Shown here piece after piece: positions 3,900 to 38,671 of a stretch of DNA of 64,000 bases (positions within the stretch are counted from its first letter, which is position 1; the number at the start of each line of letters is the position of its first letter). Origin of the DNA: Corallococcus exiguus. GTDB lineage: Bacteria > Myxococcota > Myxococcia > Myxococcales > Myxococcaceae. The position numbers and the translations under genes are program-made. Below the pieces are notes generated by a model. It did no database searches and was not told where the DNA came from. It saw only the letters and a list, made by a program, of their open reading frames with translations. Where the stretch lies: the NCBI RefSeq assembly GCF_009909105.1, contig NZ_JAAAPK010000002.1, forward strand, positions 413,827-477,826. Reading direction: 5' to 3'.

Positions 3900-3916
3900 A
3901 GCAGGACCCTCGCGCG

Positions 3917-5038
3917 TCAGGCCCCGGCGGCGCGCGCGGGCACCGGCTCGCCCTGGGCGTTGAGGTTCGCGCCCGTCCAGCGGTGGCTCTCCGCTTCCTC
4001 CATCGTCTCCACCTCACGGCGGATGCGGGCCCACTCCGTCTCCGGCAGGCCGAGGAACGCCTCCGCGAGCATCGGGTCGAACTGCGTGCCCGCGCAGCGG
4101 CGGACCTCGTCGCGCGCCACGCTCATGGGCCGCCCCTTGCGATAGGGCCGGTCGGAGGTGATGGCATCCAGCGTGTCCACGAGGCAGAAGATGCGCGCCC
4201 CGATGACGATCTCCTCGCCCTGGAGCCCCAGCGGGTAGCCCTTGCCGTCCCAGCGCTCCTGGTGCTGCAGGACGATGAGCGCCGCCTCGTGCAGGTAGGG
4301 CATCTTCGCCAGCATCCGGTAGCCGAACTCCGGGTGCAGCTTCATCTCCACCCATTCCTCCGGCGTGAGCGGCCCGGGCTTGAGCAGGATGGAGTCCCGC
4401 ACGCCAATCTTCCCGATGTCGTGCAGGAGCGCGCCCTGCTCCACCACGTCCAGCGCCGGTCCGGTGAGGCCGATCTCCTGCGCCAGCCGCCGCGCGTACA
4501 GCGACACGCGCCGCGAGTGCCACTGCGTCTCCGTGTCGCGGTAGTCCAGCGCGCTGATGAGCCCGTCCAGAAGCCCCGTGGTGCGCTCGATGACCCGGCG
4601 CTCCAGTCCCTCGTTGATGGCCAGGAGCTCCGCGTTCTTCTCCGCGACCTCGCGTGTCAGCCGCTCGTTGGTGGCCACCAGCCGGTGGTGCTCGAAGGCC
4701 TGCCGGATGCTGCTGGTCAGGTCGCTCAGCGACCACGGCTTGCCCAGGAGCCGGAAGACCTCGCCCCGGTTCACCGCCTCCGACGCCGTCTTGAAGTCCG
4801 CCGCCGCCGTCAGCATCAGCCGCACCGCGCGAGGGTTCTTCTCCCGGAGCGCTGACAACAGCTCGATGCCGTTGAGGTACGGCATCATGAAGTCCGTGAG
4901 GACGACGTCGAATCCCTGCTCCCGCGCCGCCACCACCGGGTCGCTGTGTGTCACGACCTCGTAACCCTCCGCCTGGAGGATCCGGGACAGCGCGGCGAGG
5001 ATGAGCACGTCGTCGTCCACCACGAGGATTCGGGCCAT
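3917..5038 (-). CDS. Response regulator with receiver domain plus HD-GYP domain; predicted c-di-GMP phosphodiesterase
   Basis: N-terminus MARILVVDDDVLILAAL...DVVLTDFMMPYLNG (receiver). C-terminal domain carries HD...HHERWDGKGYP (HD and GYP motifs). Confidence 0.85.
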   Translation of the reverse strand: MARILVVDDDVLILAALSRILQAEGYEVVTHSDPVVAAREQGFDVVLTDFMMPYLNGIELLSALREKNPRAVRLMLTAAADFKTASEAVNRGEVFRLLGKPWSLSDLTSSIRQAFEHHRLVATNERLTREVAEKNAELLAINEGLERRVIERTTGLLDGLISALDYRDTETQWHSRRVSLYARRLAQEIGLTGPALDVVEQGALLHDIGKIGVRDSILLKPGPLTPEEWVEMKLHPEFGYRMLAKMPYLHEAALIVLQHQERWDGKGYPLGLQGEEIVIGARIFCLVDTLDAITSDRPYRKGRPMSVARDEVRRCAGTQFDPMLAEAFLGLPETEWARIRREVETMEEAESHRWTGANLNAQGEPVPARAAGA

Positions 5039-11711: not shown

Positions 11712-12461
11712 ATGGCACAGATCAAGCTTGGAGAACTGCTGATCAAGGCGAACGTCCTGCAGGAGAGCCAGCTCAAGGCGGCGCTCGCCGAGCAGGCCAA
11801 GTGGGGCGGGAAGCTGGGCGAGATCCTCGTCCGGATGAACCTCGTCTCCGAGGACATCCTCGTGCGCGCCTTGTCGAAGCAGCTGGGCATGCCGGCGGTG
11901 AACCTGGACTCCGTGCAGATGGTGCCGCCGCACGTGAAGGCCAAGATTCCTGCGCAGACGGCGCGCGACTTCTCTGTCGTCCCGCTGCAACTGCGCGACG
12001 ACGGCAAGACGCTGGTGGTCGCCATGTCGGACCCGCTCAACGTGCGGGTGCTGGACGAGCTGCGGGCCCTGTCCAAGTGCCGCATCGTGGCCAACGTGGC
12101 CGGGCGCACCTCCGTGGCGCGGGCGTTCGCGCGCCTCTACGAGGAGACGGCGGAGCTGGAGGACGCGGACACCAACTTCAAGGTGGTGGACGCGCAGGGC
12201 CGCACCGTCGTGAAGAACCTCAAGGACCTGGACCCGGCCGCCGCCGTCGCCATGTCCCCCAAGCCCGCCGCCGCGCCGCCTCCCCGCCAGGCCCCCCCGC
12301 CGGAGGCGCCTCGCGCGGCCTCAGGCAGCCCCTCGGAGCTGCTCAAGAGCGTGGAGGATGTCCAGCGCAAGGAAGTCGCGGCGCTGAAGGCCATGGTCGA
12401 GCTGCTCATCGAGAAGGGCGTTTTCTCCCGCGAGGAATACCTCGCCAAGGTCAAGCGGTAG
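11712..12461 (+). CDS. Stand-alone T2SS-E N-terminal (MshEN/GSPII_E_N) domain protein
   Basis: KLGELLIKANVLQESQLKAALAEQ...KLGEILVRMNLVSEDILVRALSKQLGMP, the tandem signature of MshEN domains. Confidence 0.7.
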   Translation: MAQIKLGELLIKANVLQESQLKAALAEQAKWGGKLGEILVRMNLVSEDILVRALSKQLGMPAVNLDSVQMVPPHVKAKIPAQTARDFSVVPLQLRDDGKTLVVAMSDPLNVRVLDELRALSKCRIVANVAGRTSVARAFARLYEETAELEDADTNFKVVDAQGRTVVKNLKDLDPAAAVAMSPKPAAAPPPRQAPPPEAPRAASGSPSELLKSVEDVQRKEVAALKAMVELLIEKGVFSREEYLAKVKR

Positions 12462-12470
12462 CCCCCGGCC

Positions 12471-13477
12471 ATGCGCAAGAAGATTGGTGAACTCCTCGTC
12501 CAGGCCGGAGTGGTGACGGACGAGCAGGTGAAGCAGGCCCTCGCGTCCGGACGGCGCGGCCAGGGCCGCAAGCTGGGTGAGGTGCTGGTGTCCATGGGCC
12601 TGTGCACGGGCCGGGACATCGCGCGGGCGCTGGCGGCGCAGCACGAGCTGCCGTTCGTGGAGATCCCCGAGTACATCCCGCATGCGGTGTCCTCGCTGGT
12701 GTCCATGGACTTCCAGACCGAGCACCGGGTGCTCCTCTTCGCTGCGGAGCAGGACGGCCGCAGCGAGAAGATCCACGTCGCGGTGGAAGACCCGGGCAAC
12801 CTGATGCTCGTGGACGAGCTACGCTTCCAGTTGCGCAAGCCGCTCAAGGTGTTCGTCGTAGCGCCGGACGATCTGGAGCAGGCGCTCGCGCGCGGCCGGG
12901 GCGAGCCCCTGGACATCGTGGAGGCTGAACCGATGGACATGGACGAGGACGATTCGCCGGACATCCTGCCGCCGCCCCCTCCCTCGGCCGCGCGCCCGCC
13001 TCCGCCGCCGCGCCCGCCCGCGCCGCCGACGCTGGACTGGGACCTGCCGCCGCCTCCGCCGCACGACGGCGACGCGTCCGCCGACGGCGCGGAGGTGCTG
13101 GAGGACATCCTGGGCTCCACGCCCCGTCCCAAGGTCCCCAAGGCCCCGCGTCCGCCGCCTCCTCCCGCCGCTGCCCGTCCGCCGCCTCCTCCGCCTCCCG
13201 CGGAGCCGGAGGACCCGAGCAAGCCGCGCGTGCCGGTGGTGCTCTTCGGCGGCGCCGCGCAGGGCGTGAAGCCGTCCGTGGCGCTCACGCCCAAGCCGGA
13301 CTTCTCCGAGGAGGACCTGGCGGTGCTGGACGACATCGACCGCATCTCGCGCGGCGAAGAGGCCAGCCTGGACACGGAGAAGGTGAAGCCCGCGCGCATG
13401 GTCGCGAGCCTCATCCGCCTGCTCATCCGCAAGGGGCTCATCCAGGAGGCGGAGTTCCTGGAGGAGCTGGCCCAGAA

Positions 13478-13481
<4 letters not shown>
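12471..13481 (+). CDS. Second MshEN (T2SS-E N-terminal) domain protein with a polyproline-rich C-terminal region
   Basis: [21 protein letters not shown]...[29 protein letters not shown], followed by [20 protein letters not shown]...[23 protein letters not shown]. Confidence 0.7.
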
Positions 13482-15561: not shown

Positions 15562-15937
15562 GTACAACCGCACGTACGTGCTCGCGGGCGTGCGCGTGTG
15601 CGCGCGGTGCCTGGGCACGTACCCGGTGCTCGCGGGCGTGTTCCTCGCGCTGTTCGCGCTGAAGGCGCCGCTCCAGTGGGAGTGGGACGTGCCGGTGGTG
15701 CTGGGGCTCACGCTTCCCGCGCTCGTGGACTGGGCGGTGGGACGCTTCCGGCCCGCCTCGGGTTCCAACGCGGTGCGCACGCTGACGGGCATCCTGTTGG
15801 GAGTGGGGCTCGGCCGCTCGCTGTACGTGCACGTGCAGCGCCCACTGCCGGCGGTATTACTTGCGCAGGCACTTCTGGTGACAGGGGTGGCGGTCCCTGT
15901 CATTCTCGCCACTTACCGGCGGCCACGGCCGGAATAG
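15530..15937 (+). CDS. Small polytopic membrane protein, DUF2085-like
   Basis: GTG at 15530 preceded by GGAGG. CxxC (VCARCLG) followed by several hydrophobic helices. The track start at 15437 overlaps the C-terminus of the preceding ABC gene. Confidence 0.45.
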
Positions 15938-15968
15938 ACCTTTCGCGCACGGCTGTCCGTTACAGGCC

Positions 15969-16649
15969 TTGGGCGGTGAAGGGGATGGCACCCGTGGCTT
16001 CATGGGCACTGGGGGAAGTTTGGCACCCGAAACCTCAGACGAGCAGCTGATGCTCGCCTTCCAGGCGGGAAACGCGCGTGCGTTCGATGCGTTGGTGCGC
16101 AAGCACCGCGCGCCGGTGTTCAACTTCATCCTGCGCTTCGTGGGGCACCGGGCGCGAGCGGAGGACGTGCTGCAGGAGACCTGGCTCAAGGTGGTCCGTA
16201 GCGCCCGGGAATACGAGCCCAAGGCCCGGTTCACGACCTGGCTGTACACCATCGCGAGGAACCTCTGCGTGGACAGCACGCGCAAAGAGAGCTACCGCCA
16301 GACGACGTCCCTGGAAGCCCCCTCGGCCGGTGCCGACGGCGACGAGGGACGTCCGTTGGGCGAGGGGCTGCCGGACGCCGGGGCCAGCCCGGAGCGCGGC
16401 GCGCACAACGCCCGCCTCCGGCCCCTGCTGGAGCGGGCCCTGTCCGCCCTGCCGGAGGAGCAGCGCGAGGTGTTCGTGCTGCGCGAGTACAGCGGCATCC
16501 CGTTCAAGGAGATCGCCGAGGTGACAGGCGTGTCCGAGAACACGGTGAAGAGCCGCATGCGCTACGCGTTGGAGGGCCTGCGCCGCCGCCTGGGTGAGCT
16601 GGGCGTGGACGGCGACCTGTCGGAGGATGGAAGGACGGTGGCGGGATGA
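15969..16649 (+). CDS. ECF-type RNA polymerase sigma-70 family factor
   Basis: Region 2 (FDALVRKHRAPVFNFILRFVGHRARAEDVLQETWLKV) and region 4 (EVFVLREYSGIPFKEIAEVTGVSENTVKSRMRYAL). Confidence 0.85.
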   Translation: MGGEGDGTRGFMGTGGSLAPETSDEQLMLAFQAGNARAFDALVRKHRAPVFNFILRFVGHRARAEDVLQETWLKVVRSAREYEPKARFTTWLYTIARNLCVDSTRKESYRQTTSLEAPSAGADGDEGRPLGEGLPDAGASPERGAHNARLRPLLERALSALPEEQREVFVLREYSGIPFKEIAEVTGVSENTVKSRMRYALEGLRRRLGELGVDGDLSEDGRTVAG

Positions 16650-18076
16650 GTGCCCAGAATGCCCACGCGCACGAGGACCGGCTCCTCGACTTCGCCTACG
16701 GCGAGCTGCCTGCGTCGGAGGCCCATGTGCTGGAGCAGCACGTCCAGGGCTGTGCGCGCTGCACGAAGGCGCTGGCGGACATCCGCGGCGTGCGCACCAC
16801 CATGGCGCAGCTGTCGTCGGAGCCCGCGCCGGACGCCGGCCTGGAGTCGCTGCTCGCGTACGCGCAGCAGTCCGCGCGCCGAGCCGCCGCGGGCCCCGAG
16901 CCGAAGCCCTCGCGCTGGCGCCGCTTCCTGCTGCCCGCGGTGGGCCTGGCCACGGTGGGCACCTTCGGCCTCCTGACGTTGACGGTGAGCGAGAACCTGG
17001 ACCTGGCGCCGAACCTGTCGCAGCGGGCTCCCAGCCCGACGATGGCCGCGGCGAAGCAGGAGTCGCCGCCGCGGGAGAAGCGCGCCCCGAGCGCCCTGGC
17101 CCCCGCTCCTTCGAGCGCGACCCTCGAAGTGGACGTGCCCGAGGGTGCCTCGGACGAACTGGCGGCCGCGCCCGCGCCGGACGTGATGAAGAACCAGGTG
17201 GAGGCCAAGGTGCAGCGCAAGGGCACCGCCGCGGCCCGTCCGTCCGACTGGATGAACTCGGGCAGTGGTGGCGCGCTGCTGGAGCGCCGCGCGGAACCCG
17301 AGGCTCCCAAGAAGAAGATGTCCAAGGCCGTCCGGGACGCGGACGACGAGTTCGCCGCGCTCTCGCAGGCGACGGCCGGGGTGGCCGAGCAGGAGGCGCC
17401 TCCGAAGGAAGAGCAGGCCAACGACGGCTCCCTCGCGAAGGATGAGCCCGCGGCGCGGCGCTCCTCGGGAAAGCTCAGCGACAAGGCCATGGGCGCGAAG
17501 GGCGACTCCCTGCGGCTGGGTGAAGCGGCCTATGGCCGTGGGCTCAGGACGGATGACGACCAGGGAGTGGCCGCGGGCGCGGCTCCGCCGCCTCCTGCCG
17601 TGGCCTCCGCGCCCGTGGTCCAGGCCGTGCCCATGGCCCCCGCCGCCGTGGGCTCCATCGGCGGTGCGACGCCTCCGTCCACGCCCAAGCGGGAGTCCGC
17701 CCAGGCCCAGGCCGCGAAGCCTGCCTCCGCGGAGAAGTCCGCCGCCAAGGAAGCGATGACGGCGCGCGACCTGTCCGCCCAGGCCCAGGCCGCGGCGAAC
17801 CAGGGTGACCGCGCCCGGGAGGCCCAGCTGCTGCGCGCCGCGCTCGCGGCTGGAGCCAGCGGCAGCGAGCGGCTGGCCCTGCTCTCACGGCTCTGCGAGT
17901 CGGAGTCCGTCCAGGGCCGGACCCAGGAGGCCGCCGCCGTCTGCGGGCAGATCGTCACCGAGGCCCCCGGCTCCAGCGCGGCGCAGTTGGCCCAGCGCCG
18001 CCTGCGTCAGGCCTCGCCCGCCACGGCTCCGGAGTCTGATCCGGCCAGGGCCGCCCCTTCCCAGCCCGCGCAGTAG
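16646..18076 (+). CDS. Anti-sigma factor: zinc-finger N-terminus, TM segment, long disordered Ala/Pro-rich region and a C-terminal TPR-like segment
   Basis: Overlaps the sigma gene stop. HVLEQHVQGCARCTKAL (HxxxCxxC anti-sigma motif), then a TM helix (FLLPAVGLATVGTFGLLTL). Confidence 0.7.
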   Translation: MSAQNAHAHEDRLLDFAYGELPASEAHVLEQHVQGCARCTKALADIRGVRTTMAQLSSEPAPDAGLESLLAYAQQSARRAAAGPEPKPSRWRRFLLPAVGLATVGTFGLLTLTVSENLDLAPNLSQRAPSPTMAAAKQESPPREKRAPSALAPAPSSATLEVDVPEGASDELAAAPAPDVMKNQVEAKVQRKGTAAARPSDWMNSGSGGALLERRAEPEAPKKKMSKAVRDADDEFAALSQATAGVAEQEAPPKEEQANDGSLAKDEPAARRSSGKLSDKAMGAKGDSLRLGEAAYGRGLRTDDDQGVAAGAAPPPPAVASAPVVQAVPMAPAAVGSIGGATPPSTPKRESAQAQAAKPASAEKSAAKEAMTARDLSAQAQAAANQGDRAREAQLLRAALAAGASGSERLALLSRLCESESVQGRTQEAAAVCGQIVTEAPGSSAAQLAQRRLRQASPATAPESDPARAAPSQPAQ

Positions 18077-18094
18077 GGGAGGGCGGCAGTCCAC

Positions 18095-18397
18095 ATGACC
18101 GATGCTTCCGGGGCCTGGGTCCTGGATAATGGGAGCATGACGTCGGACGTGCACGCTCCCCCCGTGAACAGCCCCCGGAAGTCGCCGCCGCGCTCCCCGC
18201 GCCGGGCCCGCCGTGGCCAGGCCATGGTGGAGTACTCGATGATCAACTGGGTGTTGATCGTCGGGCTCGTCGTTGGCGCCACGGTGAAGATCCGCTGGAC
18301 GGACGACCGGCAGACCAACGTCATCGACCTGTTCCTCGAGGCGTACCAGATCTACTACGACTCGTTTTACTTCGTGCTGAACCTGCCGTTCCCCTGA
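18095..18397 (+). CDS. Flp/Fap-family type IVb prepilin with an unusually long leader
   Basis: RRARRGQAMVEYSMINWVLIVGLVVGATV matches the Flp prepilin G/xxxxEY processing motif plus a hydrophobic stem. It lies immediately upstream of cpaB-tadB-tadC. The true start may be an internal ATG. Confidence 0.65.
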   Translation: MTDASGAWVLDNGSMTSDVHAPPVNSPRKSPPRSPRRARRGQAMVEYSMINWVLIVGLVVGATVKIRWTDDRQTNVIDLFLEAYQIYYDSFYFVLNLPFP

Positions 18398-18509
18398 GGG
18401 ACGGAAGGCCGCGGATCAACTCACTGCGTCGAGCCGTCCTCCCCCCTGGGCGGACAGGCTCCGCGAGCTCCGGGCGTCCCGGGATTCCGCTTTGTCACGA
18501 GAGGTGGTT

Positions 18510-18539
18510 TTGACACCTGCTCTGGGGCATGGCTAACAT
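18510..18539 (+). promoter_or_regulatory. Candidate sigma-70-type promoter upstream of cpaB
   Basis: TTGACA (18510-18515), an 18-nt spacer, then TAACAT (18534-18539), about 90 nt upstream of the cpaB start. Confidence 0.25.
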
Positions 18540-18629
18540 CTTGCCTCGTTCGCGCCCTGGCATCGCCCCCTCGTCCAAAGCAGTCCTGCCGCCACGACGG
18601 CGCCCCACCGTTCTGGAGGACTTTGAACC

Positions 18630-19448
18630 ATGTTGAAGGGTAAGACCCCACTCGTCGTCGCACTGGTGCTCGGTTTGCTCGCGGGCATCGTGGCCTACTC
18701 GGCCATCAAGAAGAAGGAATCCGATGTGCGCCGCGGGTGGAACCTGGTTCCCGTGGTGGTGGCGGGCCAGGACATGCCCGAGGGCTCGGTCATCACGTAC
18801 GAGATGATCTCCCAGCGCTCGGTGCCGGAGCAGTTCGTCACCTCGTCGGTGGTGAAGCCGGACTCCGCCAACTACATCGTGAACCAGAAGGTGCTGGTGG
18901 CGCTGCAGGCCGGCGACCCCATCCTCTGGAGCCAGTTCGAGACGACGAAGGCCGCCGAGCGCCTGTCCACGAAGGTGCAGAAGAAGGCGCGCGCCATCAC
19001 CATCGAGGCGAAGCAGACCACGTCCGTGGGCGGGTGGATTCGCCCGAACGACCACGTGGACATCATCGGCACGTTCCGCGATCCGCAGACGGACGAGAGC
19101 GTCGCGGTGACGCTGCTGCAGAACATCATCGTGGTCGCCACGGGTAAGATCACCGGCACCACGAACATCAACCTCATCCCGGAGAACCAGCGCGAGTACT
19201 CCAACGTCTCGCTGATGGTGCTGCCAGAAGAGGCGGAGATCCTGGTGCTGGCGGCGGAACTGGGCCAGCTGACGTTGTCCCTGCGCAACGAGGACGACGT
19301 GGACCTCATCGAGGAGCGTGGCCGCGCGACCATCAGCACGCTGCTCTCCGGTGAACGCACCCGTGTGCTGGAGCAGAAGCGCCGGGAGATCATCCAGATC
19401 ATCAAGGGCAGTGGCGGCGGCGAGAAGGCCTCGGCCGGCTCTCCGTAG
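18630..19448 (+). CDS. cpaB: Flp pilus assembly protein CpaB/RcpC
   Basis: N-terminal TM segment, then a SAF/CpaB-type domain (VPVVVAGQDMPEGSVIT...). Gene order is pilin-cpaB-tadB-tadC. Confidence 0.8.
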   Translation: MLKGKTPLVVALVLGLLAGIVAYSAIKKKESDVRRGWNLVPVVVAGQDMPEGSVITYEMISQRSVPEQFVTSSVVKPDSANYIVNQKVLVALQAGDPILWSQFETTKAAERLSTKVQKKARAITIEAKQTTSVGGWIRPNDHVDIIGTFRDPQTDESVAVTLLQNIIVVATGKITGTTNINLIPENQREYSNVSLMVLPEEAEILVLAAELGQLTLSLRNEDDVDLIEERGRATISTLLSGERTRVLEQKRREIIQIIKGSGGGEKASAGSP

Positions 19449-19526
19449 TCCTGCGCGCGGGGCCGCTTCGCTCACGGCTGAAGCGGCCCTGCCGACCCCT
19501 CCCTCATCCCCCGGGGATTCGCGCCC

Positions 19527-20372
19527 ATGCTCGCAGGTATCGTCCTCCTTCTCGTCACCGGCTCGGTGTTCTTCTTCAGCCTGGTGATCTTCAGCGTCCT
19601 GTCGAAGGCGTATGAGCAGTACCAGGAGCGGTACGTCGCCAAGTCGATGAACGACTTGAGCGACATGTTCCTCTTCATCGACGCGCGGCAGATGTTGATC
19701 CTCAACATCGCCTGCATGTGCCTCCTGGGCATCCTCAGCTACATCGTCTTCAACCCCATCCTCGCGGTGCTCGCGACCATCTTCGGCTTCTTCCTGCCGA
19801 TGCTGCTCGTGAAGCACTACCGCAAGCGCCGCATCAAGAAGTTCAACGTGCAGCTGGTGGATGCGCTGCAGGCCATGGCCAACGCGTTCAAGGCGGGCCT
19901 CACGTTCCCCCAGGCCATCGAGCACGTGGCGCGCGAAGCGATGCCGCCCCTGTCCCAGGAGTTCGGCCTCTTCGTGAAGGAAGTGAAGCTGGGCGTGCCG
20001 CTGGAAGAAGCGCTCGTCAACATGGGCAAGCGCGTGGGCAGCGACGACCTGGAGCTGGTGGTGGTGTCCACCAACATCGCGCGCCAGCTGGGCGGCAACA
20101 TGGCGGAGATGTTCGAGACCATCTCCACGGTGATCCGCGAGCGCTTCCGTCTGGAAGGCAAGATCGACGCGCTGACCTCCCAGGGCAAGCTTCAAGGGTG
20201 GATCGTCGCGGCCATGCCGGCGGTGCTGGGCATGGTTCTCAACTACATGCGTCCGGACCTGATGGAGCCGATGATGAACCACATCTTCGGCTACATCCTG
20301 GTGACCATCATCGCCATCATGGAGATCATGGGCATCCTCATCATCCGGCGCATCGTCAACATCGACATCTGA
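19527..20372 (+). CDS. tadB: Tad/Flp pilus inner-membrane platform protein TadB (T2SS-F domain)
   Basis: GspF-like domain with flanking TM helices. Confidence 0.8.
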   Translation: MLAGIVLLLVTGSVFFFSLVIFSVLSKAYEQYQERYVAKSMNDLSDMFLFIDARQMLILNIACMCLLGILSYIVFNPILAVLATIFGFFLPMLLVKHYRKRRIKKFNVQLVDALQAMANAFKAGLTFPQAIEHVAREAMPPLSQEFGLFVKEVKLGVPLEEALVNMGKRVGSDDLELVVVSTNIARQLGGNMAEMFETISTVIRERFRLEGKIDALTSQGKLQGWIVAAMPAVLGMVLNYMRPDLMEPMMNHIFGYILVTIIAIMEIMGILIIRRIVNIDI

Positions 20373-20385
20373 AACGAGGCGCACC

Positions 20386-21276
20386 GTGCAGGAAGTCCTG
20401 ACATTTCTGCTGATGGGCGGCTCGGCACTGCTGACCGCGGGCGCGGTGGCGTTCCTGGGCATCGGCCTGTACTCCAACCTCCTGGAGCGCTTCCTCACGG
20501 AAGTCCGCGACGAGTCCGCGGGCGGCATGAAGGGCGCGGGCTCCGTCGCCGTCCGCAAGCTGGGCTCGATGAACCGGCGCTTCATGTGGCCGGGCTACGA
20601 GTCCAAGACGCGCCGCAAGCTGATCAAGGCGGGCGAGCCGTCGCAGTACAAGCCCGAGGACATCATGGCGCTGCAGGAGATCAGCGCCTTCTTCGCGCTC
20701 CTGGCCGGCCTGTTCGTCGTCAACGGCATGGGCATGAACCTGGCCTGGTCGCTGCTGGTGATGCTGCTGGGCCTGTTCTATCCGCTCATCTGGTTGAACG
20801 ATCAGGTGAAGCGCCGTCACCTGGCCATCAGCCGCGCGCTTCCGTACAACCTGGACCTGCTGACGCTGTCGGTGGAAGCGGGCATGGACTTCACGGGCGC
20901 GCTGGCGAAGGTGGTGGAGAAGGGCCGCCAGGGTCCGCTGCGCGAAGAGCTGCAGCTGGTGCTCAAGCAGCTCAAGATGGGCAAGACGCGTGAAGAGGGG
21001 CTCAAGAGCATGATCGTGCGCGTGGACCTGCCGTCGCTGACGACGTTCGTCACGGCGCTGATCCAGGCGGACAAGATGGGTACGAGCCTGGGCAAGGTGC
21101 TGCGCATCCAGTCCACGCAGATGCGCATCGACCGCACGCAGCGCGCCGAGAAGCTGGCGGGCGAGGCGCCGGTGAAGATGCTCTTCCCGCTCATCGCCTG
21201 CATCTTCCCGACGGTGTTCATGGTGCTCTTCGGGCCCATCGTGTTCCAGTTCATGTTCGGCAACGTCGGGGGCTAG
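20386..21276 (+). CDS. tadC: Tad/Flp pilus inner-membrane platform protein TadC (T2SS-F domain)
   Basis: Second GspF-like paralogue, LTLSVEAGMDFTGALAKV... Confidence 0.8.
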   Translation: MQEVLTFLLMGGSALLTAGAVAFLGIGLYSNLLERFLTEVRDESAGGMKGAGSVAVRKLGSMNRRFMWPGYESKTRRKLIKAGEPSQYKPEDIMALQEISAFFALLAGLFVVNGMGMNLAWSLLVMLLGLFYPLIWLNDQVKRRHLAISRALPYNLDLLTLSVEAGMDFTGALAKVVEKGRQGPLREELQLVLKQLKMGKTREEGLKSMIVRVDLPSLTTFVTALIQADKMGTSLGKVLRIQSTQMRIDRTQRAEKLAGEAPVKMLFPLIACIFPTVFMVLFGPIVFQFMFGNVGG

Positions 21277-21349
21277 TCCTCTGCCCATCCTGCTCACCAT
21301 CACCCAGGGGCTCCAGGTCGGACGGGAGCTCGCCTTCGAGCAGGCCGAA

Positions 21350-24300
21350 GTGAAGATCGGCCGGACCTCGGAGAACGACCTGGTGCTGCATGACCACGGT
21401 GTCTCCCGGCGTCATGCCCGCATCACGGCGAAGGATGGGCGCTACTTCGCCGCGGACGTTGGCAGCGCGAACGGCACGCAGCTGAACGGCCAGCCCCTGG
21501 CCGGTGAGAAGCAGCTGCGCGACGGCGACCGCATCACCGTGGGCCCGGTGGAGTTCACCTTCGTGTGGATGCCGCCGGAGGATGACGACGACGTCACCCG
21601 GCCCATCCGGCGGATGCTCGCGCCGCCCCACGCGAACGTGTCGCCGCAGGGCATGGGGCAGGCCTCGCTCGCGGAAATCGAAGCGGCGCCCACGAGCTAC
21701 CAGCAGTCGATGCCGGCCATGGCCCGGCCTGCATCCCCGCCGCGCCCGGGAATGGCGGTGCCCGTGGTGAAGGGTGGGGCCACCCCTGCGATGCCGGTGC
21801 CGGCCGCCACACCGAAGCGGCCCTCCGCTCCGGATCTGCCGGCGGTCAGTGCCCCCGCGCCGGTCCGGCCTCCACCGGGGCCTGTGCTCAGCGCTTCCGT
21901 GCCGGGTGCGGCGACTCCTCCCAAGCCTCCCGCCGGGCCTCCTGTGCTGGGAGCTTCCTCGCCGGCATCCGCTGCGCCTGTCCGGGCTGCATCGGGAGCT
22001 CCCGTCCTGGGGGCTTCCGCGCCGGCATCCGCTGCGCCGGCCCGGCCTGCACCGGGAGTTCCCGTGCTGGGGGCTTCCTCGCCGGGTGTGGCGACTCCGC
22101 CCAGGCCTCCTTCGGGCCCGCCTGTGCTGGGTGCCTCCGCGTCGGCTGCTTCGGGCAAGGTTCCCGCCGCGCCTCCTGTGTTGGGTCCTTCGGCGCCGGG
22201 AGCGACCGCGCCCGCCAGGACTCCGTCAGGGCCCCCGGTGTTGGGGCCTGCCGCTTCGGGCGCGGGTGCGCCGGCCAAAACTCCCGCTGGCCCCCCGGCG
22301 CTGAGCGCTCCGGCCGCGAACAAGGCTCCGGGACCTTCCGCCTCCGTCCGAGCCTCCGGGCCGGGACTGTCAGCGGTCGGTGCCTCGGGACCGGGCCGGT
22401 CATCCGCGCTGGAGGCTGCCCCGGCCCCCTCGCCCCCCACCGCGAGCGAACTTCCCGCGGCTGGAACTCCTGTCTCGACGGCGACCTCCGCGCCGGGGAG
22501 GGTCGCCGCTTCAGCTCCTGTCGAGCCCGCGGCTCCCGCCAAGCGGAACGGCGTCGCGAACCTTCCTGGTGTCGGTGCGCCCGCGCTGAACCGTCCCTCG
22601 CTGGGGCTTGGCGCCGCGCGCGCGTCCGCTGCTCCGGTGTCCCGGGACGCCGCGGCTTCCGCGCCCGGCCTGCCGTTGATGTCGCCGCCGGGGCTCATGG
22701 CTCCGCCGCCTCCGGCTCGGCCTTCCGTCGTACCGCCTCCCGTGGACCTGGCCCCCGTGGTGCCGGATGAACCCGAGGAGCGCACGCTGATGGCGATTCC
22801 CACGGCGGACGCACCCTCCGTGGCGCTGCCTCCCGTGCTGCCGCTCCCGGAGCTGGACGAGCCCGAGGAGCGCACGCTGATGGCGATCTCCACGGTGGAC
22901 TCGCTCGTGCCCGCTGCGGTGCCGTCCCCCGTGCTGTCGCTCCCGGAGCTGGACGAGCCCGAGGAGCGAACGTTGATGGCGATTCCGGCGACCCTGGAAG
23001 CGCCGCCCGTAGAAGCCGCGGCGCCGCCACAGGAGGCCTCGCCCGCGCTGCCTCCGCCGATGATGGAGGAGCCCGAGGAGCGGACCGTTCTCGACCTCCG
23101 GCCCATCACTCCGGTCAGTCCGCTCGTGGCCCCTCCGGTGCGCGTCGCGAGCGCTCCCGTCCCCGCGCCCGACTCCAGCGAGCCCTCGACCTTCGTCGGC
23201 CAGGACGATGACCTCTTCGCGACCCCCGAGGAGACCCGGGCTTCGGGGACCTTCACGGGCCAGCTCGCGCCTGGCCCCGTGGCGCCTCCTCCGGCCTGGA
23301 GCCCTCCCGTCCCGCCGCCTTCGCCGGAGCCGGTGACGTTCGTCGGCCGGGACCGGGCCGCGCCTGCCCCGACCCTGGACCCCGGCCCGCTGCCGGGCGA
23401 GTTCCCACTGGCCCCCGTGCCCTCCTCGGACGTGGAGGGGGACGCCACCCAGCCCGTGCCGGCCGACCTGGAGGACTCCTTCGTCCAGCCCGTGTCCAAC
23501 GGCCCGGTGACGGTCGTCGCGAAGGTCGAGCCCTCGTCCGCCGCCGACAAGGCCCGTCAACGGCGTCAGCTGGGCAAGTCACTCCAGGGCCGGTTCATCC
23601 TCTTCTGGAAGCGCCAGTCGCTGCCCAAGCGGATCGCCTTCGCGTCGCTGGCGGGCGTGGCCGTGCTGTGCGTGGTGACGCTGCTCGTGGCGCTCGCGGT
23701 CCCCACGGCCATCCGGCTCCCGGGCAGCGAACCCTTCAAGCTGGGCATGGAGCCGGTGACGGACTCCTTCGGCCTGGGCGACGGCGTGCGCTGGGTCCAC
23801 GCGGACGACAAGCTCTTCGACTTCCGCTTCGTGTCCCCCACGCGCGCCGTGGCGGTGCTGCACTACCAGGCCAGCAGCATCGCCCGGGACGAGGTCAACC
23901 TGTCCCTCAACGGCGTGTCCCTGGGCTGGGTGCCCCCGGACACTGCGCAGACGGCCGAGCGTGAGCTGGAGCAGATCCTCCCGCCCAGCCTCCTGCGGCG
24001 CAACGCCAACAACCAGCTCCTCTTCGACAACGCCCTCAACCCGCCCGGCCGCGACCCGTGGCGCATCTGGAACCTGCGGCTGGAGATCATCCCGGTGCCG
24101 GAGGCGCCGCCGGATCAGCTGGTCGCCTCCGCCCGGGAGGCCGCGACGGCGGGGGCCCGCTTCTACGAGCTCAAGGATGTGGGCGCGGAGAACCTGTTCA
24201 AGGCGTGGCGGGAATACCGCGCCGCGTGGATCACCCTGGAAGCGCTGGACGACAAGCCGGAGCTCTACGAGGACGTCCGGGAGCGGATCGCCCAGATTTC

Positions 24301-24475
24301 AATGGAGCTGGACCACCGCTGCAGCCAGCTGATGATGCAGTTCCAGCGGGCGGTTCAGTTCCGCAGCCGACGGGATGCGGTCGCGACCCTGGAAGACGTA
24401 CGGAGACGCTTCCCTACGGCCGAGCATCGCTGCCACAATCTCGCGCTGGAAAAAGCCTATGAGCACGAGCTTTAG
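21350..24475 (+). CDS. FHA-domain protein, about 1040 aa, with long Pro/Ala-rich tandem repeats, one TM segment and a C-terminal globular domain. The real N-terminus probably lies about 23 codons upstream, at CTG 21281.
   Basis: FHA signature GRTSENDLVLHDHGVSRRHARI...GSANGTQLNG. The in-frame upstream PILLTITQGLQVGRELAFEQAEV is the first beta-strand of an FHA domain but has no ATG, GTG or TTG. TM helix at IAFASLAGVAVLCVVTLLVALAV. Confidence 0.75.
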   Translation: MKIGRTSENDLVLHDHGVSRRHARITAKDGRYFAADVGSANGTQLNGQPLAGEKQLRDGDRITVGPVEFTFVWMPPEDDDDVTRPIRRMLAPPHANVSPQGMGQASLAEIEAAPTSYQQSMPAMARPASPPRPGMAVPVVKGGATPAMPVPAATPKRPSAPDLPAVSAPAPVRPPPGPVLSASVPGAATPPKPPAGPPVLGASSPASAAPVRAASGAPVLGASAPASAAPARPAPGVPVLGASSPGVATPPRPPSGPPVLGASASAASGKVPAAPPVLGPSAPGATAPARTPSGPPVLGPAASGAGAPAKTPAGPPALSAPAANKAPGPSASVRASGPGLSAVGASGPGRSSALEAAPAPSPPTASELPAAGTPVSTATSAPGRVAASAPVEPAAPAKRNGVANLPGVGAPALNRPSLGLGAARASAAPVSRDAAASAPGLPLMSPPGLMAPPPPARPSVVPPPVDLAPVVPDEPEERTLMAIPTADAPSVALPPVLPLPELDEPEERTLMAISTVDSLVPAAVPSPVLSLPELDEPEERTLMAIPATLEAPPVEAAAPPQEASPALPPPMMEEPEERTVLDLRPITPVSPLVAPPVRVASAPVPAPDSSEPSTFVGQDDDLFATPEETRASGTFTGQLAPGPVAPPPAWSPPVPPPSPEPVTFVGRDRAAPAPTLDPGPLPGEFPLAPVPSSDVEGDATQPVPADLEDSFVQPVSNGPVTVVAKVEPSSAADKARQRRQLGKSLQGRFILFWKRQSLPKRIAFASLAGVAVLCVVTLLVALAVPTAIRLPGSEPFKLGMEPVTDSFGLGDGVRWVHADDKLFDFRFVSPTRAVAVLHYQASSIARDEVNLSLNGVSLGWVPPDTAQTAERELEQILPPSLLRRNANNQLLFDNALNPPGRDPWRIWNLRLEIIPVPEAPPDQLVASAREAATAGARFYELKDVGAENLFKAWREYRAAWITLEALDDKPELYEDVRERIAQISMELDHRCSQLMMQFQRAVQFRSRRDAVATLEDVRRRFPTAEHRCHNLALEKAYEHEL
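21895..22310 (+). repeat. Tandem array of about 60-nt repeats, roughly 7-8 copies, encoding xxPPVLGASxPASAAPxRxxSG
   Basis: The near-identical repeat unit is visible directly in the DNA and in the protein. Confidence 0.6.
22766..23095 (+). repeat. Four dispersed-tandem copies of a motif encoding (L)DEPEERTLMAI(P) separated by spacers of about 70 nt
   Basis: gacgagcccgaggagcgcacgctgatggcgat recurs four times with minor variants. Confidence 0.55.
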
Positions 24476-24502
24476 GGCCCGTGCCCCCCTCAGCAGGACG
24501 CG

Positions 24503-26251
24503 GTGACCGCCATGTCGAACGCACCTCCCCCCGCCCGCCGACGGCCTACGTCCGGTACGCCCTCCTCCGGGAGCGGTTCGCGCGCGCCGGTCCGCCGGTC
24601 GACCTCCGGTGCCGCCGCGGCCCGCCCCGCGAAGCTCGTCGTCGTCGCCGGCCCCATGGAGGGTGAGGAGTTCGCGCTCTCCGAGCTCGAGTACACGGTC
24701 GGCCGCTCCGCCGACAACCCCATCTGCATCCAGGACACGTCCGTCTCCCGCAAGCACGTGACGCTGCGCAAGGAGTCCTCGGGCTGGATGGTCAGTGACA
24801 TGGGCTCCGGCAACGGAACCATCCTCAACGGCGAGCCCATCGCCGAGGAGACGCTCCTCGCCAACGGCGATGTCATCACGCTGGGCGACTCGGAGCTGCG
24901 CTACGAGGACACCGCCAACAGCACCGCGAAGGTGCAGGCCCCCACCGGCTCCCGGCCCCGTCCGTCCACGGCGGCGGGCCGCGGTCCCACGGCCGTGCCC
25001 ACGCGTCCCGCCCGGGAGGGCCGCGCGCGCCCGCAGACGTCGCGCGCCGCCGCCGCCGCGGAGCTCACGCCGGAAGCGCAGCGCAAGCGCATGCGGATGA
25101 AGCTCGCGGGCGTCGCCGTGCTGGTGCTGCTCTTCGCGGGCCTGGGTGTCGCGCGCTCGCGCATGCGGCAACAGGCGGAGGAGCAGGGCCGCATCGAGGC
25201 GGAGCAGCGCGAATACCGCGCGCAGCTGGGCGGCCTCTTCCAGGAGGCCAAGAACCTGGTGCGCGAGGGCCAGTGGGAGCAGGCCAAGGCGAAGCTGGAG
25301 GAGCTCCACACGCGGGCGTCGGACTATCCCGGCGTCGAGGACTACCTGAAGGCCGCGGAGCGGGAGATTCCCAACCAGAAGCACCTGGGCACGGCCCAGG
25401 CGGCGCTGGACAAGGGCGAGCTGGCCAGCGCGAAGGCGTCCATCGAGAAGGTGACCAGCGACACCCAGCAGTACGAGCAGCTGAAGACGGCACGCAAGAA
25501 CCTGACGGACGCGGCCGACAAGCGCACGAAGGAGGCCAAGGGGCTCCTGGACACCCGCGCGCTGGAGAACGTGCAGAAGGCCAAGGCCATCACCGACGAC
25601 GTGCTCGCGACCTTCCCCGAGCACCGCGACGGCAAGCTGGTCAATGACGACGCCGTGCGCGTCATCGCGGACCTGACGCGTCCGGACCCCGTGCGCGTGG
25701 CCGCGACGCCCAAGCCGTGGGAGCCCGCGGTGGACCGCTTCCGCGACGCGGACATCACCGGGGCGGTGGCCATCCTCAACGCGTGCTCGGCCAAGACGTC
25801 CCAGTGCAAGCAGCTGATGGCGCAGATGACGGAGTTCGGCAACCTCTACAAGAAGCTGGAGGACCTGGACGCCAAGGGCCTCACCCGCCTGCTCGCGCTG
25901 GACAAGGAAATCACCGAAGGGCGCACGAGCAAGATGGCGCGCAACGCGGGCACCCGCGCGGGCAACATCTATTACAAGAGCGCCGCGGGCGCGAAGGCCG
26001 CCGGCCAGTGGTCGCGCGCCATGGAGTTCGCTCGCCGTGCCCTCCAGGCGGACCCCAGCCACACGGGCGCCGCCAACATCGTCAACGACCTCAAGGGCAA
26101 GGCGAAGGACCTGTACATGCAGGCCTACTCCATCAAGGACTCCAGCCCGGAGGACGCGCTGCCCAAGTTCCGCGACGTCGTCGCGATGACGCCGCCCGAC
26201 GACGAGCTGCACGGCAAGGCCCAGGGCTGGGTCGAGAAGCTGTCGCGATGA
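24503..26251 (+). CDS. FHA-domain protein with a TM helix and a C-terminal alpha-helical, TPR-like domain
   Basis: GTG start. FHA signature YTVGRSADNPICIQDTSVSRKHVTLRK...GSGNGTILNG. TM helix at LAGVAVLVLLFAGLGVA. Confidence 0.8.
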   Translation: MTAMSNAPPPARRRPTSGTPSSGSGSRAPVRRSTSGAAAARPAKLVVVAGPMEGEEFALSELEYTVGRSADNPICIQDTSVSRKHVTLRKESSGWMVSDMGSGNGTILNGEPIAEETLLANGDVITLGDSELRYEDTANSTAKVQAPTGSRPRPSTAAGRGPTAVPTRPAREGRARPQTSRAAAAAELTPEAQRKRMRMKLAGVAVLVLLFAGLGVARSRMRQQAEEQGRIEAEQREYRAQLGGLFQEAKNLVREGQWEQAKAKLEELHTRASDYPGVEDYLKAAEREIPNQKHLGTAQAALDKGELASAKASIEKVTSDTQQYEQLKTARKNLTDAADKRTKEAKGLLDTRALENVQKAKAITDDVLATFPEHRDGKLVNDDAVRVIADLTRPDPVRVAATPKPWEPAVDRFRDADITGAVAILNACSAKTSQCKQLMAQMTEFGNLYKKLEDLDAKGLTRLLALDKEITEGRTSKMARNAGTRAGNIYYKSAAGAKAAGQWSRAMEFARRALQADPSHTGAANIVNDLKGKAKDLYMQAYSIKDSSPEDALPKFRDVVAMTPPDDELHGKAQGWVEKLSR

Positions 26252-33809: not shown

Positions 33810-34253
33810 GGTTTCGCACTCTACCGCGCTCCCCCGGGAAGCGGGCGGGGCCACGTCCCTTACCGCGCCCGTCCCCCGGAATCCTGATCGCGAGAGCCCT
33901 GAAAACCCCCGCCGGCGCTTGCCCGCCCACCCTGCCTCCGGCCGGGCGGCGAGGGTGGTGCTGGAAGAAAGTGACAGTATGACTGTTTTCGTGGGATTCC
34001 ACCGCTACATAGGGGTGGGCGGGCGGTTTCCGGTCACCGGACCGTCACGCGTGTGCGGGATTCCGGAGGAAGAACACCGGTCCGGGGTATACGTCGCGCG
34101 CCTTTTCCCACCCCTCTCGCTTGAGGAGAGCCCCGTTCAACCGCTGGCCCGCGGACGGGTTAGACGGCATGATCCGGAATCGACCATGACCCCTTTCGCA
34201 CCCAACGGGTTTTCGCGACGTCGTTCCCAGTCTGGGCGGGGCGGAGGCGCGCC

Positions 34254-36767: not shown

Positions 36768-36772
36768 CCCGC

Positions 36773-38659: not shown

Positions 38660-38671
38660 GGTCCCGGGCTC

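What the first reader, a model, noticed from the sequence alone, without database searches (positions are those of the whole stretch)
18095..21276. Tad/Flp-like pilus module (Flp pilin, cpaB, tadB, tadC) lacking ATPase and secretin in cis; resembles the second cluster of the Myxococcus Kil predation apparatus
A Flp-type prepilin (G/QAMVEY motif) precedes cpaB, tadB and tadC. Two FHA-domain proteins follow, and two MshEN-domain proteins and an ECF sigma/anti-sigma pair lie upstream. No CpaF/TadA ATPase, CpaC secretin or TadV peptidase is present in the window. In M. xanthus, a Tad-like 'Kil' machine needed for contact-dependent prey killing is encoded in two separate clusters. One of them lies near the bactofilin locus and contains FHA proteins, which matches this layout. 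The pilin has an unusually long, Pro/Arg-rich leader (30-44 aa before the cleavage Gly) and a mature part of about 55 aa with an aromatic-rich C-terminus (YQIYYDSFYFVLNLPFP).
Basis: partly seen in the sequence, partly recalled or inferred. Interest (0 to 1): 0.6.

Follow-up and report, generated by a model that had tools for sequence, protein, structure and literature searches.

The report
Corallococcus Kil predation-pilus cluster II, Tip4-less
This is the Corallococcus exiguus copy of the second gene cluster of the known Myxococcus "Kil" Tad-like killing pilus, an ordinary ortholog that differs mainly in lacking one set of pilus-tip genes and four unknown genes.

Summary
Window 18137-26251 (+) encodes a small Flp-like prepilin, CpaB, two T2SSF platform proteins and two FHA proteins. 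An ECF sigma/anti-sigma pair and two MshEN proteins lie upstream, and three bactofilin genes lie 13 kb downstream. No ATPase, secretin or prepilin peptidase was found in the 64 kb.

The interpretation also holds. The window is Corallococcus exiguus, and the genes are syntenic orthologs of M. xanthus kil cluster II: KilB 90%, KilG 95%, KilH 82%, KilK 77% identity.

- **Pilin identity.** The pilin is KilK (MXAN_4655), which was shown in 2025 to be an adapter minor pilin. The major pilin, KilP, is encoded elsewhere.
- **Leader length.** The "30-44 aa leader" is an ORF-calling artefact. The ATG at 18095 sits inside a conserved upstream motif. The likely start is ATG 18137 (27-aa leader) or GTG 18164 (18-aa leader).
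- **Difference from Myxococcus.** All true Corallococcus species examined lack Tip4 (kilL4/M4/N4) and MXAN_4653/4654/4656/4657 at this locus. kilK sits directly behind the motif that precedes kilM4 in Myxococcus.
- **Partner genes.** Published tables list KilA/C/F/D about 85-90 genes away in four complete Corallococcus genomes.

Verdict: a known system, a new member with a modest variant, and low-to-moderate interest.

The parts
16002..16649 (+). ECF sigma factor, ortholog of the gene upstream of MXAN_4661 (start is approximate)
   Evidence: Pfam Sigma70_r2/r4_2/ECF. 86% identity to the M. xanthus ortholog. Annotated as 215 aa in near-identical loci. Found upstream of the pilin and kilB genes in nearly all loci with enough flank.
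16646..18076 (+). zf-HC2 anti-sigma-like protein, ortholog of MXAN_4661 (listed as part of kil cluster II)
   Evidence: Pfam zf-HC2. 41% identity over the full length to MXAN_4661. Listed as 'putative zinc-finger' in PMC8460266 Supplementary file 1.
18091..18136 (+). Conserved upstream motif: TCCAcaTGACCGATGC (18091-18106), 18 nt, GATAAT (18125-18130), 6 nt, ATG. Probably the promoter or regulatory site of the pilin gene. It contains the spurious ATG at 18095.
   Evidence: Conserved in all Corallococcus loci. The same motif immediately precedes the kilM4 start in the colinear long-form Myxococcus, Pyxidicoccus, Citreicoccus and Hyalangium loci and in several related MAGs. Single copy in the window. 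Its function is inferred, not shown.
18137..18397 (+). kilK ortholog: Flp-like prepilin of 86 aa. The predicted cleavage is after Gly encoded at 18215-18217. The mature pilin of 59 aa is encoded at 18218-18394. Alternative starts are GTG 18164 (the ancestral kilK start) and ATG 18095 (unlikely).
   Evidence: 77% identity to M. xanthus KilK over the mature part. The M. xanthus homolog P0042 occupies the MXAN_4655 position. The family alignment has invariant RGQ..EYS..NW and YYDS.Y.VLN.PFP. dN/dS is 0.11-0.56. AF2 gives helix 21-49, a hairpin, then helix 62-81, with mean pLDDT 68.6.
18510..18539 (+). Sigma-70-type promoter of kilB (TTGACA, 18 nt, TAACAT), followed by a conserved 5' UTR of about 90 nt with a GC hairpin before the Shine-Dalgarno sequence
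   Evidence: It is the only promoter-like site in 15800-21400, scoring 10 of 12. TTTGAC and TA.CAT are invariant across the 35 aligned Myxococcaceae loci, in both short and long forms. No Rfam family matches the region.
18630..19448 (+). kilB (CpaB/RcpC homolog)
   Evidence: Pfam SAF+RcpC. 90% identity to MXAN_4652. Identical to C. exiguus CpaB.
19527..20372 (+). kilG (TadB-like inner-membrane platform protein)
   Evidence: Pfam T2SSF. 95% identity to MXAN_4651.
20386..21276 (+). kilH (TadC-like inner-membrane platform protein)
   Evidence: Pfam T2SSF. 82% identity to MXAN_4650.
21281..24475 (+). FHA protein, ortholog of MXAN_4649. It is expanded to about 1064 aa by a Pro/Ala-rich repetitive insert. 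The probable start is CTG.
   Evidence: Pfam FHA / Yop-YscD_cpl. tblastn aligns M. xanthus residue 1 at 21281. All Corallococcus loci have CTG where M. xanthus has GTG. Tandem repeats of 60 nt x4 and 96 nt x2.4.
24503..26251 (+). FHA + TPR protein, ortholog of MXAN_4648
   Evidence: Pfam FHA/TPR. 59% identity over the full length.

Best explanation
The region is kil gene cluster II of Corallococcus exiguus. It encodes one half of the Kil machine, the Tad-like (type IVc) pilus that Myxococcaceae assemble at the contact site to kill prey.

**How it most likely works (inferred by orthology).**
- KilG and KilH form the inner-membrane platform.
- KilB (CpaB) links the platform to the envelope and secretin.
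- KilK is a small Flp-like prepilin. After cleavage at RG|QAMVEY it acts as the adapter that joins a KilL/M/N tip complex to the KilP filament and primes polymerisation.
- The two FHA proteins probably belong to the contact-signalling layer.
- The machine is completed by genes outside the window. Cluster I (KilA peptidase, KilC secretin, FHA-fused KilF ATPase, KilD) lies about 85-90 genes away in complete Corallococcus genomes. The major pilin KilP and the Tip1/Tip2-type tip clusters also lie elsewhere.

**How this locus differs from M. xanthus.**
- It is a short form. kilM4-kilN4-kilL4 (Tip4), MXAN_4657/4656 and MXAN_4654/4653 are absent.
- kilK now sits directly behind the conserved motif and ATG that start kilM4 in the long form. 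This gives it a 9-codon N-terminal extension.
- kilB-kilG-kilH keep their own conserved sigma-70-type promoter.

**Shown versus inferred.** Shown here: orthology, synteny, gene losses, motif conservation and purifying selection. Inferred: function in predation, processing of the prepilin, promoter activity, and that the short form in Corallococcus arose by deletion.
For: **Orthology and synteny**
- tblastn of the M. xanthus cluster (L007) against the window gives colinear hits for sigma, anti-sigma, KilK, KilB, KilG, KilH, 4649, 4648, XseA and XseB. Identity is 41-95%.
- The M. xanthus homolog of the pilin occupies the MXAN_4655 slot (one search compared with the gene list).

**Source organism**
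- KilB, KilG, KilH and the pilin are exact matches to C. exiguus proteins.
- The DNA is 99% identical to CP183924.1.

**Published function**
- KilB, KilG and KilH are essential for contact killing (PMC8460266).
- KilP is the major pilin. KilK is the adapter for Tip1, Tip2 and Tip4, and cluster II encodes Tip4 (PMC12075869).

**Partner genes**
- Supplementary Data 1 of PMC12075869 lists KilA/C/D/F, KilP, Tip1 and Tip2 in four complete Corallococcus genomes. Cluster I sits 78-91 gene indices from cluster II.
- The KilH and KilB accessions in that table fall in the same 90% clusters as the window proteins.

**Losses**
- KilM4, KilN4, KilL4, 4657, 4656, 4654 and 4653 give no tblastn hit anywhere in the window.
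- The same short form occurs in the six Corallococcus assemblies that carry an identical KilB (L001-L006) and in all 11 true Corallococcus species representatives.
- No true Corallococcus protein is among the 120 best KilN4 homologs, which reach down to 44% identity.

**Start codon and upstream motif:**

**kilB promoter:**

**Selection and structure**
- dN/dS is 0.11-0.56.
- The AF2 model is a helix-hairpin-helix with a disordered leader.
Against: - No functional data exist for Corallococcus.
- Cluster I, KilP and the Tips were not seen directly in this strain's genome. Their presence rests on a published table for other Corallococcus genomes.
- KilK does not match Pfam Flp_Fap, any PDB sequence or any PDB fold. 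Its pilin nature therefore rests on the motif, the hydrophobic helix, the operon context and the published M. xanthus genetics.
- The AF2 confidence is only moderate (pLDDT 68.6).
- Short-form loci also occur in distant Myxococcaceae lineages (L087, L089, L071, L072). The direction of change (loss versus gain of the Tip4 block) is therefore not proven.
- Only the best 120 of 217 KilN4 hits were visible, so a divergent Tip4-like gene in Corallococcus cannot be excluded.
Confidence: 0.88

Rival explanations
1. The module belongs to an ordinary adhesion or surface-sensing Tad pilus, unrelated to predation, whose other parts happen to be encoded elsewhere.
For: The domain content (Flp-like pilin, CpaB, TadB, TadC) is generic for Tad systems. 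No functional test exists in Corallococcus.
Against: - Identity to the M. xanthus Kil proteins is 82-95%, and the genes are colinear with them, including the flanking sigma, anti-sigma, FHA, FHA-TPR and xseAB genes.
- The split architecture and the FHA proteins are Kil hallmarks (PMC8460266).
- Corallococcus genomes carry the FHA-fused KilF, KilD and KilP orthologs.
Confidence: 0.05
2. The cluster is a decaying remnant. Loss of Tip4 and four neighbouring genes marks a system on its way to pseudogenisation, and the small pilin ORF is no longer expressed or processed.
For: Seven genes of the Myxococcus cluster are missing. The kilK start region is rearranged, and its start codon varies among species.
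Against: - All remaining genes are intact, with GC3 of 0.91-0.95.
- KilG is 95% identical to the Myxococcus protein.
- kilK is under purifying selection, and indels in its leader are all multiples of 3.
- The upstream motif and the kilB promoter are conserved across the genus.
- In M. xanthus, Tip4 is redundant with other Tips (PMC12075869).
Confidence: 0.04
3. The pilin ORF is the major structural pilin of the filament, as a reader might assume from its position ahead of cpaB.
For: It is the only pilin gene in the cluster here and lies first, as flp does in canonical tad loci. It was first proposed as the major pilin in 2021 (PMC8460266).
Against: - In M. xanthus, kilP (mxan_5121) is the major pilin. 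A kilK deletion has a mild phenotype, kilK is transcribed at very low levels, and it behaves as a tip adapter (PMC12075869).
- Corallococcus genomes have a KilP ortholog elsewhere.
Confidence: 0.05

Closest known systems
Myxococcus xanthus kil gene cluster II (mxan_4648-4661) of the Kil Tad-like predation apparatus (Seef et al. 2021, eLife, PMC8460266; Herrou et al. 2025, Nat Commun, PMC12075869)
   Same: Same genes in the same order: ECF sigma, zf-HC2 protein, KilK, KilB, KilG, KilH, FHA (4649), FHA-TPR (4648), xseA, xseB. Bactofilins lie nearby, and the ATPase, secretin and peptidase are encoded in a separate cluster. Identity is 77-95% for the core proteins. The same conserved kilB promoter and the same upstream motif at the head of the pilin genes are present.
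   Different: - It lacks kilM4, kilN4 and kilL4 (Tip4) and MXAN_4657, 4656, 4654 and 4653.
- kilK directly follows the anti-sigma gene, behind the motif that precedes kilM4 in Myxococcus. It carries an N-terminal extension of 9 codons.
- The 4649 ortholog is doubled in size by a Pro-rich repeat insert and has a CTG at the start position.
- Clusters I and II are about 85-90 genes apart in Corallococcus, against about 1,500 in M. xanthus (published table).
Canonical tad/cpa loci (Aggregatibacter flp-tadV-rcpCAB-tadZABCDEFG; Caulobacter pilA-cpaA-F)
   Same: A Flp-type prepilin with the G/XXXXEY motif, a CpaB/RcpC protein, and a TadB/TadC pair of T2SSF proteins.
   Different: - No TadA/CpaF ATPase, RcpA/CpaC secretin, TadV/CpaA peptidase, TadZ, TadD or TadE/F/G in cis.
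- The pilin is not recognised by Pfam Flp_Fap.
- FHA proteins and an ECF sigma/anti-sigma pair are attached.
Kil-like clusters of Bdellovibrio bacteriovorus and Bradymonas sediminis
   Same: Related Tad-derived systems in predatory bacteria, with KilB/G/H/F homologs (PMC8460266).
   Different: They are much more distant in sequence and have a different gene organisation. They were not compared directly here.

Membership tests
Kil cluster II (M. xanthus mxan_4648-4661) | A CpaB homolog (KilB) followed by two T2SSF platform genes (KilG, KilH) | tested here: met
   Pfam domains. 90%, 95% and 82% identity, colinear with M. xanthus.
Kil cluster II (M. xanthus mxan_4648-4661) | A KilK Flp-like minor pilin with a leader and the G/XXXXE motif | tested here: met
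   RG|QAMVEY motif. 77% identity to the protein in the MXAN_4655 slot.
Kil cluster II (M. xanthus mxan_4648-4661) | Two FHA-domain proteins downstream (4649, 4648) and a zf-HC2 protein upstream (4661) | tested here: met
Kil cluster II (M. xanthus mxan_4648-4661) | Tip4 minor pilins KilL4, KilM4 and KilN4 (TadE/TadG-like) within the cluster | tested here: not met
   No tblastn hit in the window. Absent from L001-L006 and from all 11 true Corallococcus species loci. No true Corallococcus protein among the top 120 KilN4 homologs. In M. xanthus, Tip4 is individually dispensable, so this is a variant and not an exclusion.
Kil cluster II (M. xanthus mxan_4648-4661) | A complementary cluster I (KilA, KilC, KilF, KilD) and KilP elsewhere in the same genome | not testable with these tools
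   The rest of this genome could not be fetched. The published table shows all of them in four complete Corallococcus genomes. None is in the window.
Kil cluster II (M. xanthus mxan_4648-4661) | Required for contact-dependent prey killing | not testable with these tools
   Needs genetics in Corallococcus.
Flp/Fap pilins (type IVc, Pfam PF04964) | A short prepilin (about 50-90 aa) with a basic leader, G/XXXXEY, and a hydrophobic N-terminal helix of about 20 aa | tested here: met
   The sequence, and the 36-member alignment with invariant RGQ, EY and NW..L.
Flp/Fap pilins (type IVc, Pfam PF04964) | A match to the family HMM | tested here: not met
   No Pfam hit at E<=10. M. xanthus KilK gives only Class_IIIsignal at E=0.098.
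Flp/Fap pilins (type IVc, Pfam PF04964) | A mostly alpha-helical fold | tested here: inconclusive
   AF2 gives helix 21-49 and helix 62-81 with a short hairpin between, at mean pLDDT 68.6. No Foldseek hit in the PDB.
Canonical tad locus | TadA/CpaF ATPase, RcpA/CpaC secretin and TadV/CpaA peptidase in the same locus | tested here: not met
   No T2SSE, Secretin or Peptidase_A24 domain in any ORF scanned across the window.

The most novel reading that the evidence does not exclude
Corallococcus carries a natural 'delta-Tip4' Kil system. In this reading, two deletions removed the Tip4 tip complex (the only M. xanthus tip able to kill without the needleless T3SS*) and four conserved unknown genes. 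The deletions fused the promoter region and start codon of the Tip4 operon to kilK, creating a chimeric, longer prepilin leader. If so, contact killing in Corallococcus should depend entirely on T3SS*. Its prey range should reflect the remaining tips. MXAN_4653/4654/4656/4657 would be Tip4-specific accessories and not core Kil parts.
Probability: 0.35. Interest if true: 0.45.

Novelty: new member of a known kind. Interest (0 to 1): 0.27.

Why it matters
The finding confirms that a reader working from raw sequence correctly recognised half of a split, experimentally characterised predation machine. In itself it adds little. Kil orthologs in Corallococcus are already tabulated in the 2025 paper's supplementary data.

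The useful increment is comparative:

- The genus-wide absence of Tip4 and of four unknown genes gives a natural experiment. It can show which cluster II genes are core (kilK, kilB, kilG, kilH and the two FHA genes) and which go with one tip.
- Two conserved non-coding elements give concrete handles on how the pilin genes and the platform genes are separately regulated. One is the motif at the head of the pilin genes. The other is the sigma-70-type kilB promoter.
- The corrected start codon matters for anyone modelling KilK or looking for its mature N-terminus.

Tried and rejected
- **Pfam on the pilin.** Scans of the full and mature forms at E<=10 gave no Flp_Fap hit.
- **PDB searches.** A profile search of PDB sequences with the KilK family found only a chance beta-xylosidase hit at E=1.1. 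Foldseek of the AF2 model against the PDB found nothing. This is as expected for a tiny helical protein.
- **Rfam.** The kilK-kilB intergenic region gave no family.
- **Route to cluster I.** I looked for one through the orphan kilB-like loci found in the genome scan (L063, L085). Their neighbours are kinases, a sigma factor and redox enzymes, not an ATPase or secretin. I therefore could not obtain a KilF or KilC query, and could not fetch cluster I from this strain's genome.
- **Second copy of the upstream motif.** A search of the window for TGACCGATGC, for example upstream of the ECF sigma gene as a sign of autoregulation, found only the one site. One hit is below the chance expectation for a 10-mer with one mismatch. 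A link between the ECF sigma and this motif therefore remains speculation.
- **Ideas rejected.**
  - The 100-aa ORF with a 41-aa leader is not real. There is an in-frame TGA in L017, and the ATG lies inside a motif that reads TTG in Myxococcus.
  - The aromatic C-terminus is not unusual. It is invariant in the whole KilK family.
- **Tip4 columns of the published table.** They were cut off in the stored copy, so they could not be read.


Full report
**What is in the window**

The window has about 70% G+C. Codon-position GC analysis supports one run of + strand genes from about 15.9 to 26.3 kb.

Pfam assigns the following:
- 15969-16649: ECF sigma factor
- 16646-18076: zf-HC2 anti-sigma-like protein
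- 18630-19448: SAF+RcpC/CpaB
- 19527-20372 and 20386-21276: T2SSF
- 21350-24475: FHA
- 24503-26251: FHA+TPR

The small ORF 18095-18397 has no Pfam hit, even at E<=10. Its GC3 is 0.91. It carries RG|QAMVEY followed by a hydrophobic stretch.

Two MshEN proteins lie upstream at 11712-13481. Three bactofilins and a ParB_N (PadC-like) protein lie at 39514-42394.

Pfam scans of the other ORFs, together with the annotation of near-identical loci, found no T2SSE ATPase, secretin or A24 peptidase in the 64 kb.

**Source organism**

KilB, KilG, KilH and both the 86-aa and 100-aa versions of the pilin ORF are exact matches to Corallococcus exiguus proteins. KilB is encoded identically in six Corallococcus assemblies. 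The DNA is 99% identical to CP183924.1 and to RAWQ01000018.1.

**Orthology with the Kil system**

The pilin ORF has 265 homologs. Every one that carries an organism name comes from a myxobacterial genus or MAG, and most are 74-77 aa. The M. xanthus homolog (P0042, 75 aa) sits in a locus (L007) with this gene order:
- ABC, ABC, DUF2085, sigma, zf-HC2
- TadE (329 aa), Tad (694 aa), TadE (397 aa)
- two proteins of unknown function (257 and 269 aa)
- the 75-aa protein
- two more proteins of unknown function (248 and 244 aa)
- CpaB, T2SSF, T2SSF, FHA, FHA-TPR, XseA, XseB

This is exactly the published list MXAN_4661 to MXAN_4648. KilM is 4660, the TadG-like protein is 4659, KilL is 4658, KilK is 4655, KilB is 4652, KilG is 4651 and KilH is 4650 (PMC8460266 Supplementary file 1).

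tblastn of these M. xanthus proteins against the whole window gives colinear hits:

| Protein | Identity |
|---|---|
| sigma | 86% |
| anti-sigma | 41% |
| KilK (mature part) | 77% |
| KilB | 90% |
| KilG | 95% |
| KilH | 82% |
| MXAN_4649 | 77% (N-terminal part) and 53% (C-terminal part) |
| MXAN_4648 | 59% |
| XseA | 83% |
| XseB | 76% |

The region is therefore the syntenic ortholog of kil cluster II, not merely something that resembles it.

**What the literature says these genes do**

- Seef et al. 2021 showed that KilB, KilG and KilH, together with the cluster I secretin KilC and ATPase KilF, are required for contact-dependent prey killing. They also showed that the machine assembles at the contact site, and they noted the unusual split into two clusters and the excess of FHA proteins.
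- Herrou et al. 2025 showed that the filament is made of KilP (mxan_5121), which is encoded elsewhere.
- The same paper showed that cluster II encodes the Tip4 complex (KilL4/M4/N4). It also showed that KilK is a poorly transcribed Flp-like adapter minor pilin needed for Tip1, Tip2 and Tip4, and that a kilK kilO double mutant makes no pilus.

The pilin in this window is thus the adapter KilK, not the major pilin.

**Partner genes**

I could not fetch the rest of this strain's genome, and I had no KilF or KilC sequence to search with. Supplementary Data 1 of Herrou et al. lists four complete Corallococcus genomes: two C. coralloides, sp019968905 and sp017309135. For each it lists KilA, KilC, KilD, KilF, KilP, Tip1 and Tip2 orthologs.

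In those genomes KilD-F-C-A sit 78-91 gene indices from KilH-G-B, for example 4689-4692 against 4609-4611. In M. xanthus the distance is about 1,500 genes. The KilB and KilH accessions in that table fall in the same 90% clusters as the window proteins.

Cluster I lies on the kilB/kilK side, where the window has only about 18 kb. Its absence from the window is therefore expected.

**Difference from Myxococcus**

KilM4, KilN4, KilL4 and MXAN_4657, 4656, 4654 and 4653 give no hit anywhere in the window. A scan of species-representative genomes with a KilB alignment returned 80 loci. Mapping the M. xanthus proteins onto them shows these forms:
- **Short form** (sigma, anti-sigma, kilK, kilB...): all 11 true Corallococcus species representatives and one Corallococcus-like MAG, as well as the six Corallococcus assemblies L001-L006.
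- **Long colinear form:** Myxococcus, Pyxidicoccus and Citreicoccus. Hyalangium has this form without 4653.
- **Inverted form:** Archangium, Cystobacter and Vitiosangium carry an inverted Tip4-kilK block.
- **Other short forms:** several distant Myxococcaceae lineages, some with and some without a detectable kilK.

A database search with M. xanthus KilN4 listed 120 full-length homologs, down to 44% identity. They come from Myxococcus, Pyxidicoccus, Hyalangium, Aggregicoccus, Melittangium, Archangium, Vitiosangium and Cystobacter. No true Corallococcus protein is among them. The only entry with that name is 'C. macrosporus'; from my own knowledge this species has also been classified in Myxococcus, and I did not check that here. 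Tip4 therefore appears to be absent from the genus, not relocated.

**Start codon and leader**

The alignment of 19 Corallococcus loci shows the following:
- The sequence around ATG 18095 (TCCAcATGACCGATGC) is conserved.
- The next 17 nt are variable.
- One species (L017) has an in-frame TGA five codons after this ATG.
- From ATG 18137 onward, every indel is a multiple of three (9, 9 and 24 nt).

The block TCCAxTTGACCGATGC, about 20 nt, GATAAT, 6-7 nt, ATG is the sequence that immediately precedes the kilM4 start in the colinear long-form loci. The window's 'ATG' at 18095 corresponds to TTG in Myxococcus. That ATG therefore belongs to a conserved non-coding motif.

ATG 18137 corresponds to the kilM4 start position. 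GTG 18164 (CCCCGTGAAC) is homologous to the kilK start of long-form species (CCCC[A/G]TGAAC).

The prepilin is therefore 86 aa with a 27-aa leader, or 77 aa with an 18-aa leader, and the mature part is 59 aa.

The simplest history for Corallococcus has two deletions. The genus is, from my own knowledge of Myxococcaceae phylogeny, nested among long-form genera. One deletion ran from just after the kilM4 ATG to about 25 nt upstream of kilK. A second removed 4654-4653. This is inference. The presence of short forms with the same motif in distant lineages (L089; partly L087) leaves the direction of change open.

The constant 6-7 nt between GATAAT and the start codon, with no Shine-Dalgarno sequence, suggests a leaderless mRNA. 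This too is inference.

**Is the pilin a real, functional gene?**

- The family alignment has invariant RGQ, EYS, NW..L...L and a C-terminal Y..YYDS.Y.VLN.PFP.
- dN/dS of the mature part against 12 orthologs is 0.11-0.56.
- AF2 with the family alignment gives a disordered leader, a helix at 21-49, a short hairpin and a helix at 62-81, at mean pLDDT 68.6.
- No PDB sequence or fold match was found.

**Regulatory element upstream of kilB**

The 232-bp kilK-kilB spacer contains the only sigma-70-like site in 15.8-21.4 kb: TTGACA, 18 nt, TAACAT at 18510-18539. TTTGAC and TA.CAT are invariant in the 35 aligned Myxococcaceae loci, of both locus forms. No Rfam family matches. The platform genes thus appear to have their own promoter, separate from the pilin genes.

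**Verdict**

This is a known system in a sister genus, and it is already covered in outline by the published comparative tables.

The new details are modest:
- the genus-wide Tip4-less short form
- the relocation of kilK behind the Tip4-operon head motif
- the corrected start codon
- the two conserved non-coding elements

Interest is low to moderate.

Noticed in passing
window 21274-21352: The MXAN_4649 ortholog (FHA protein) aligns to M. xanthus residue 1 at 21281. There, every Corallococcus locus has CTG where M. xanthus has GTG. The first canonical start (GTG 21350) would remove the first FHA strand. This suggests a probable CTG start, and public annotations disagree about it (1026-1064 aa, or split genes).
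   Followed up: partly
window 21893-23331: The same FHA gene carries a Pro/Ala-rich insert of about 580 aa that M. xanthus lacks. The insert contains tandem repeats (60 nt x4.2 and 96 nt x2.4, the latter encoding repeated DEPEERTLMAI motifs). Its length varies among Corallococcus strains, and it breaks gene calls in two assemblies (L003, L004).
   Followed up: partly
window 18540-18629: The 5' UTR of kilB is more conserved among Corallococcus species than synonymous sites are. It contains a GC hairpin (GCCGCC-ACGA-CGGCGC) just upstream of the Shine-Dalgarno sequence. The stem sequence differs between genera, and the alignment by eye suggests that pairing is kept. No Rfam match.
   Followed up: partly
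L006 (JABELA010000158.1) 1-4831 versus window 34173-41007 and 13478: In one Corallococcus contig, the GAF histidine kinase, hydrolase and three bactofilin genes lie directly upstream of the ABC transporter genes. In the window they lie 13 kb downstream of cluster II. This is either a rearrangement or a misassembly.
   Followed up: no
L063, L079, L082, L084, L085: Some Myxococcaceae MAGs carry a second, orphan kilB-like gene (77-80% identical to KilB) with no kilG or kilH next to it. In L063 it sits beside an ECF sigma factor and a Ser/Thr kinase.
   Followed up: partly
Published Supplementary Data 1 of PMC12075869: In the four complete Corallococcus genomes, kil clusters I and II are only 78-91 genes apart. 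In M. xanthus they are about 1,500 genes apart. The 'split' is therefore much narrower in this genus.
   Followed up: no
window 52022-63630 (- strand): Three very large consecutive ORFs (about 1290, 770 and 1860 aa). The only Pfam hit is DUF6603 in the largest, and their function is unknown.
   Followed up: no
L027-L034, L043, L059-L062, L066: In Archangium, Cystobacter and Vitiosangium, the whole block kilM4-kilN4-kilL4-4657-4656-kilK-4654 is inverted relative to kilB. The head motif TGACCGATG...GATAATGG was not detected there with the pattern used.
   Followed up: no
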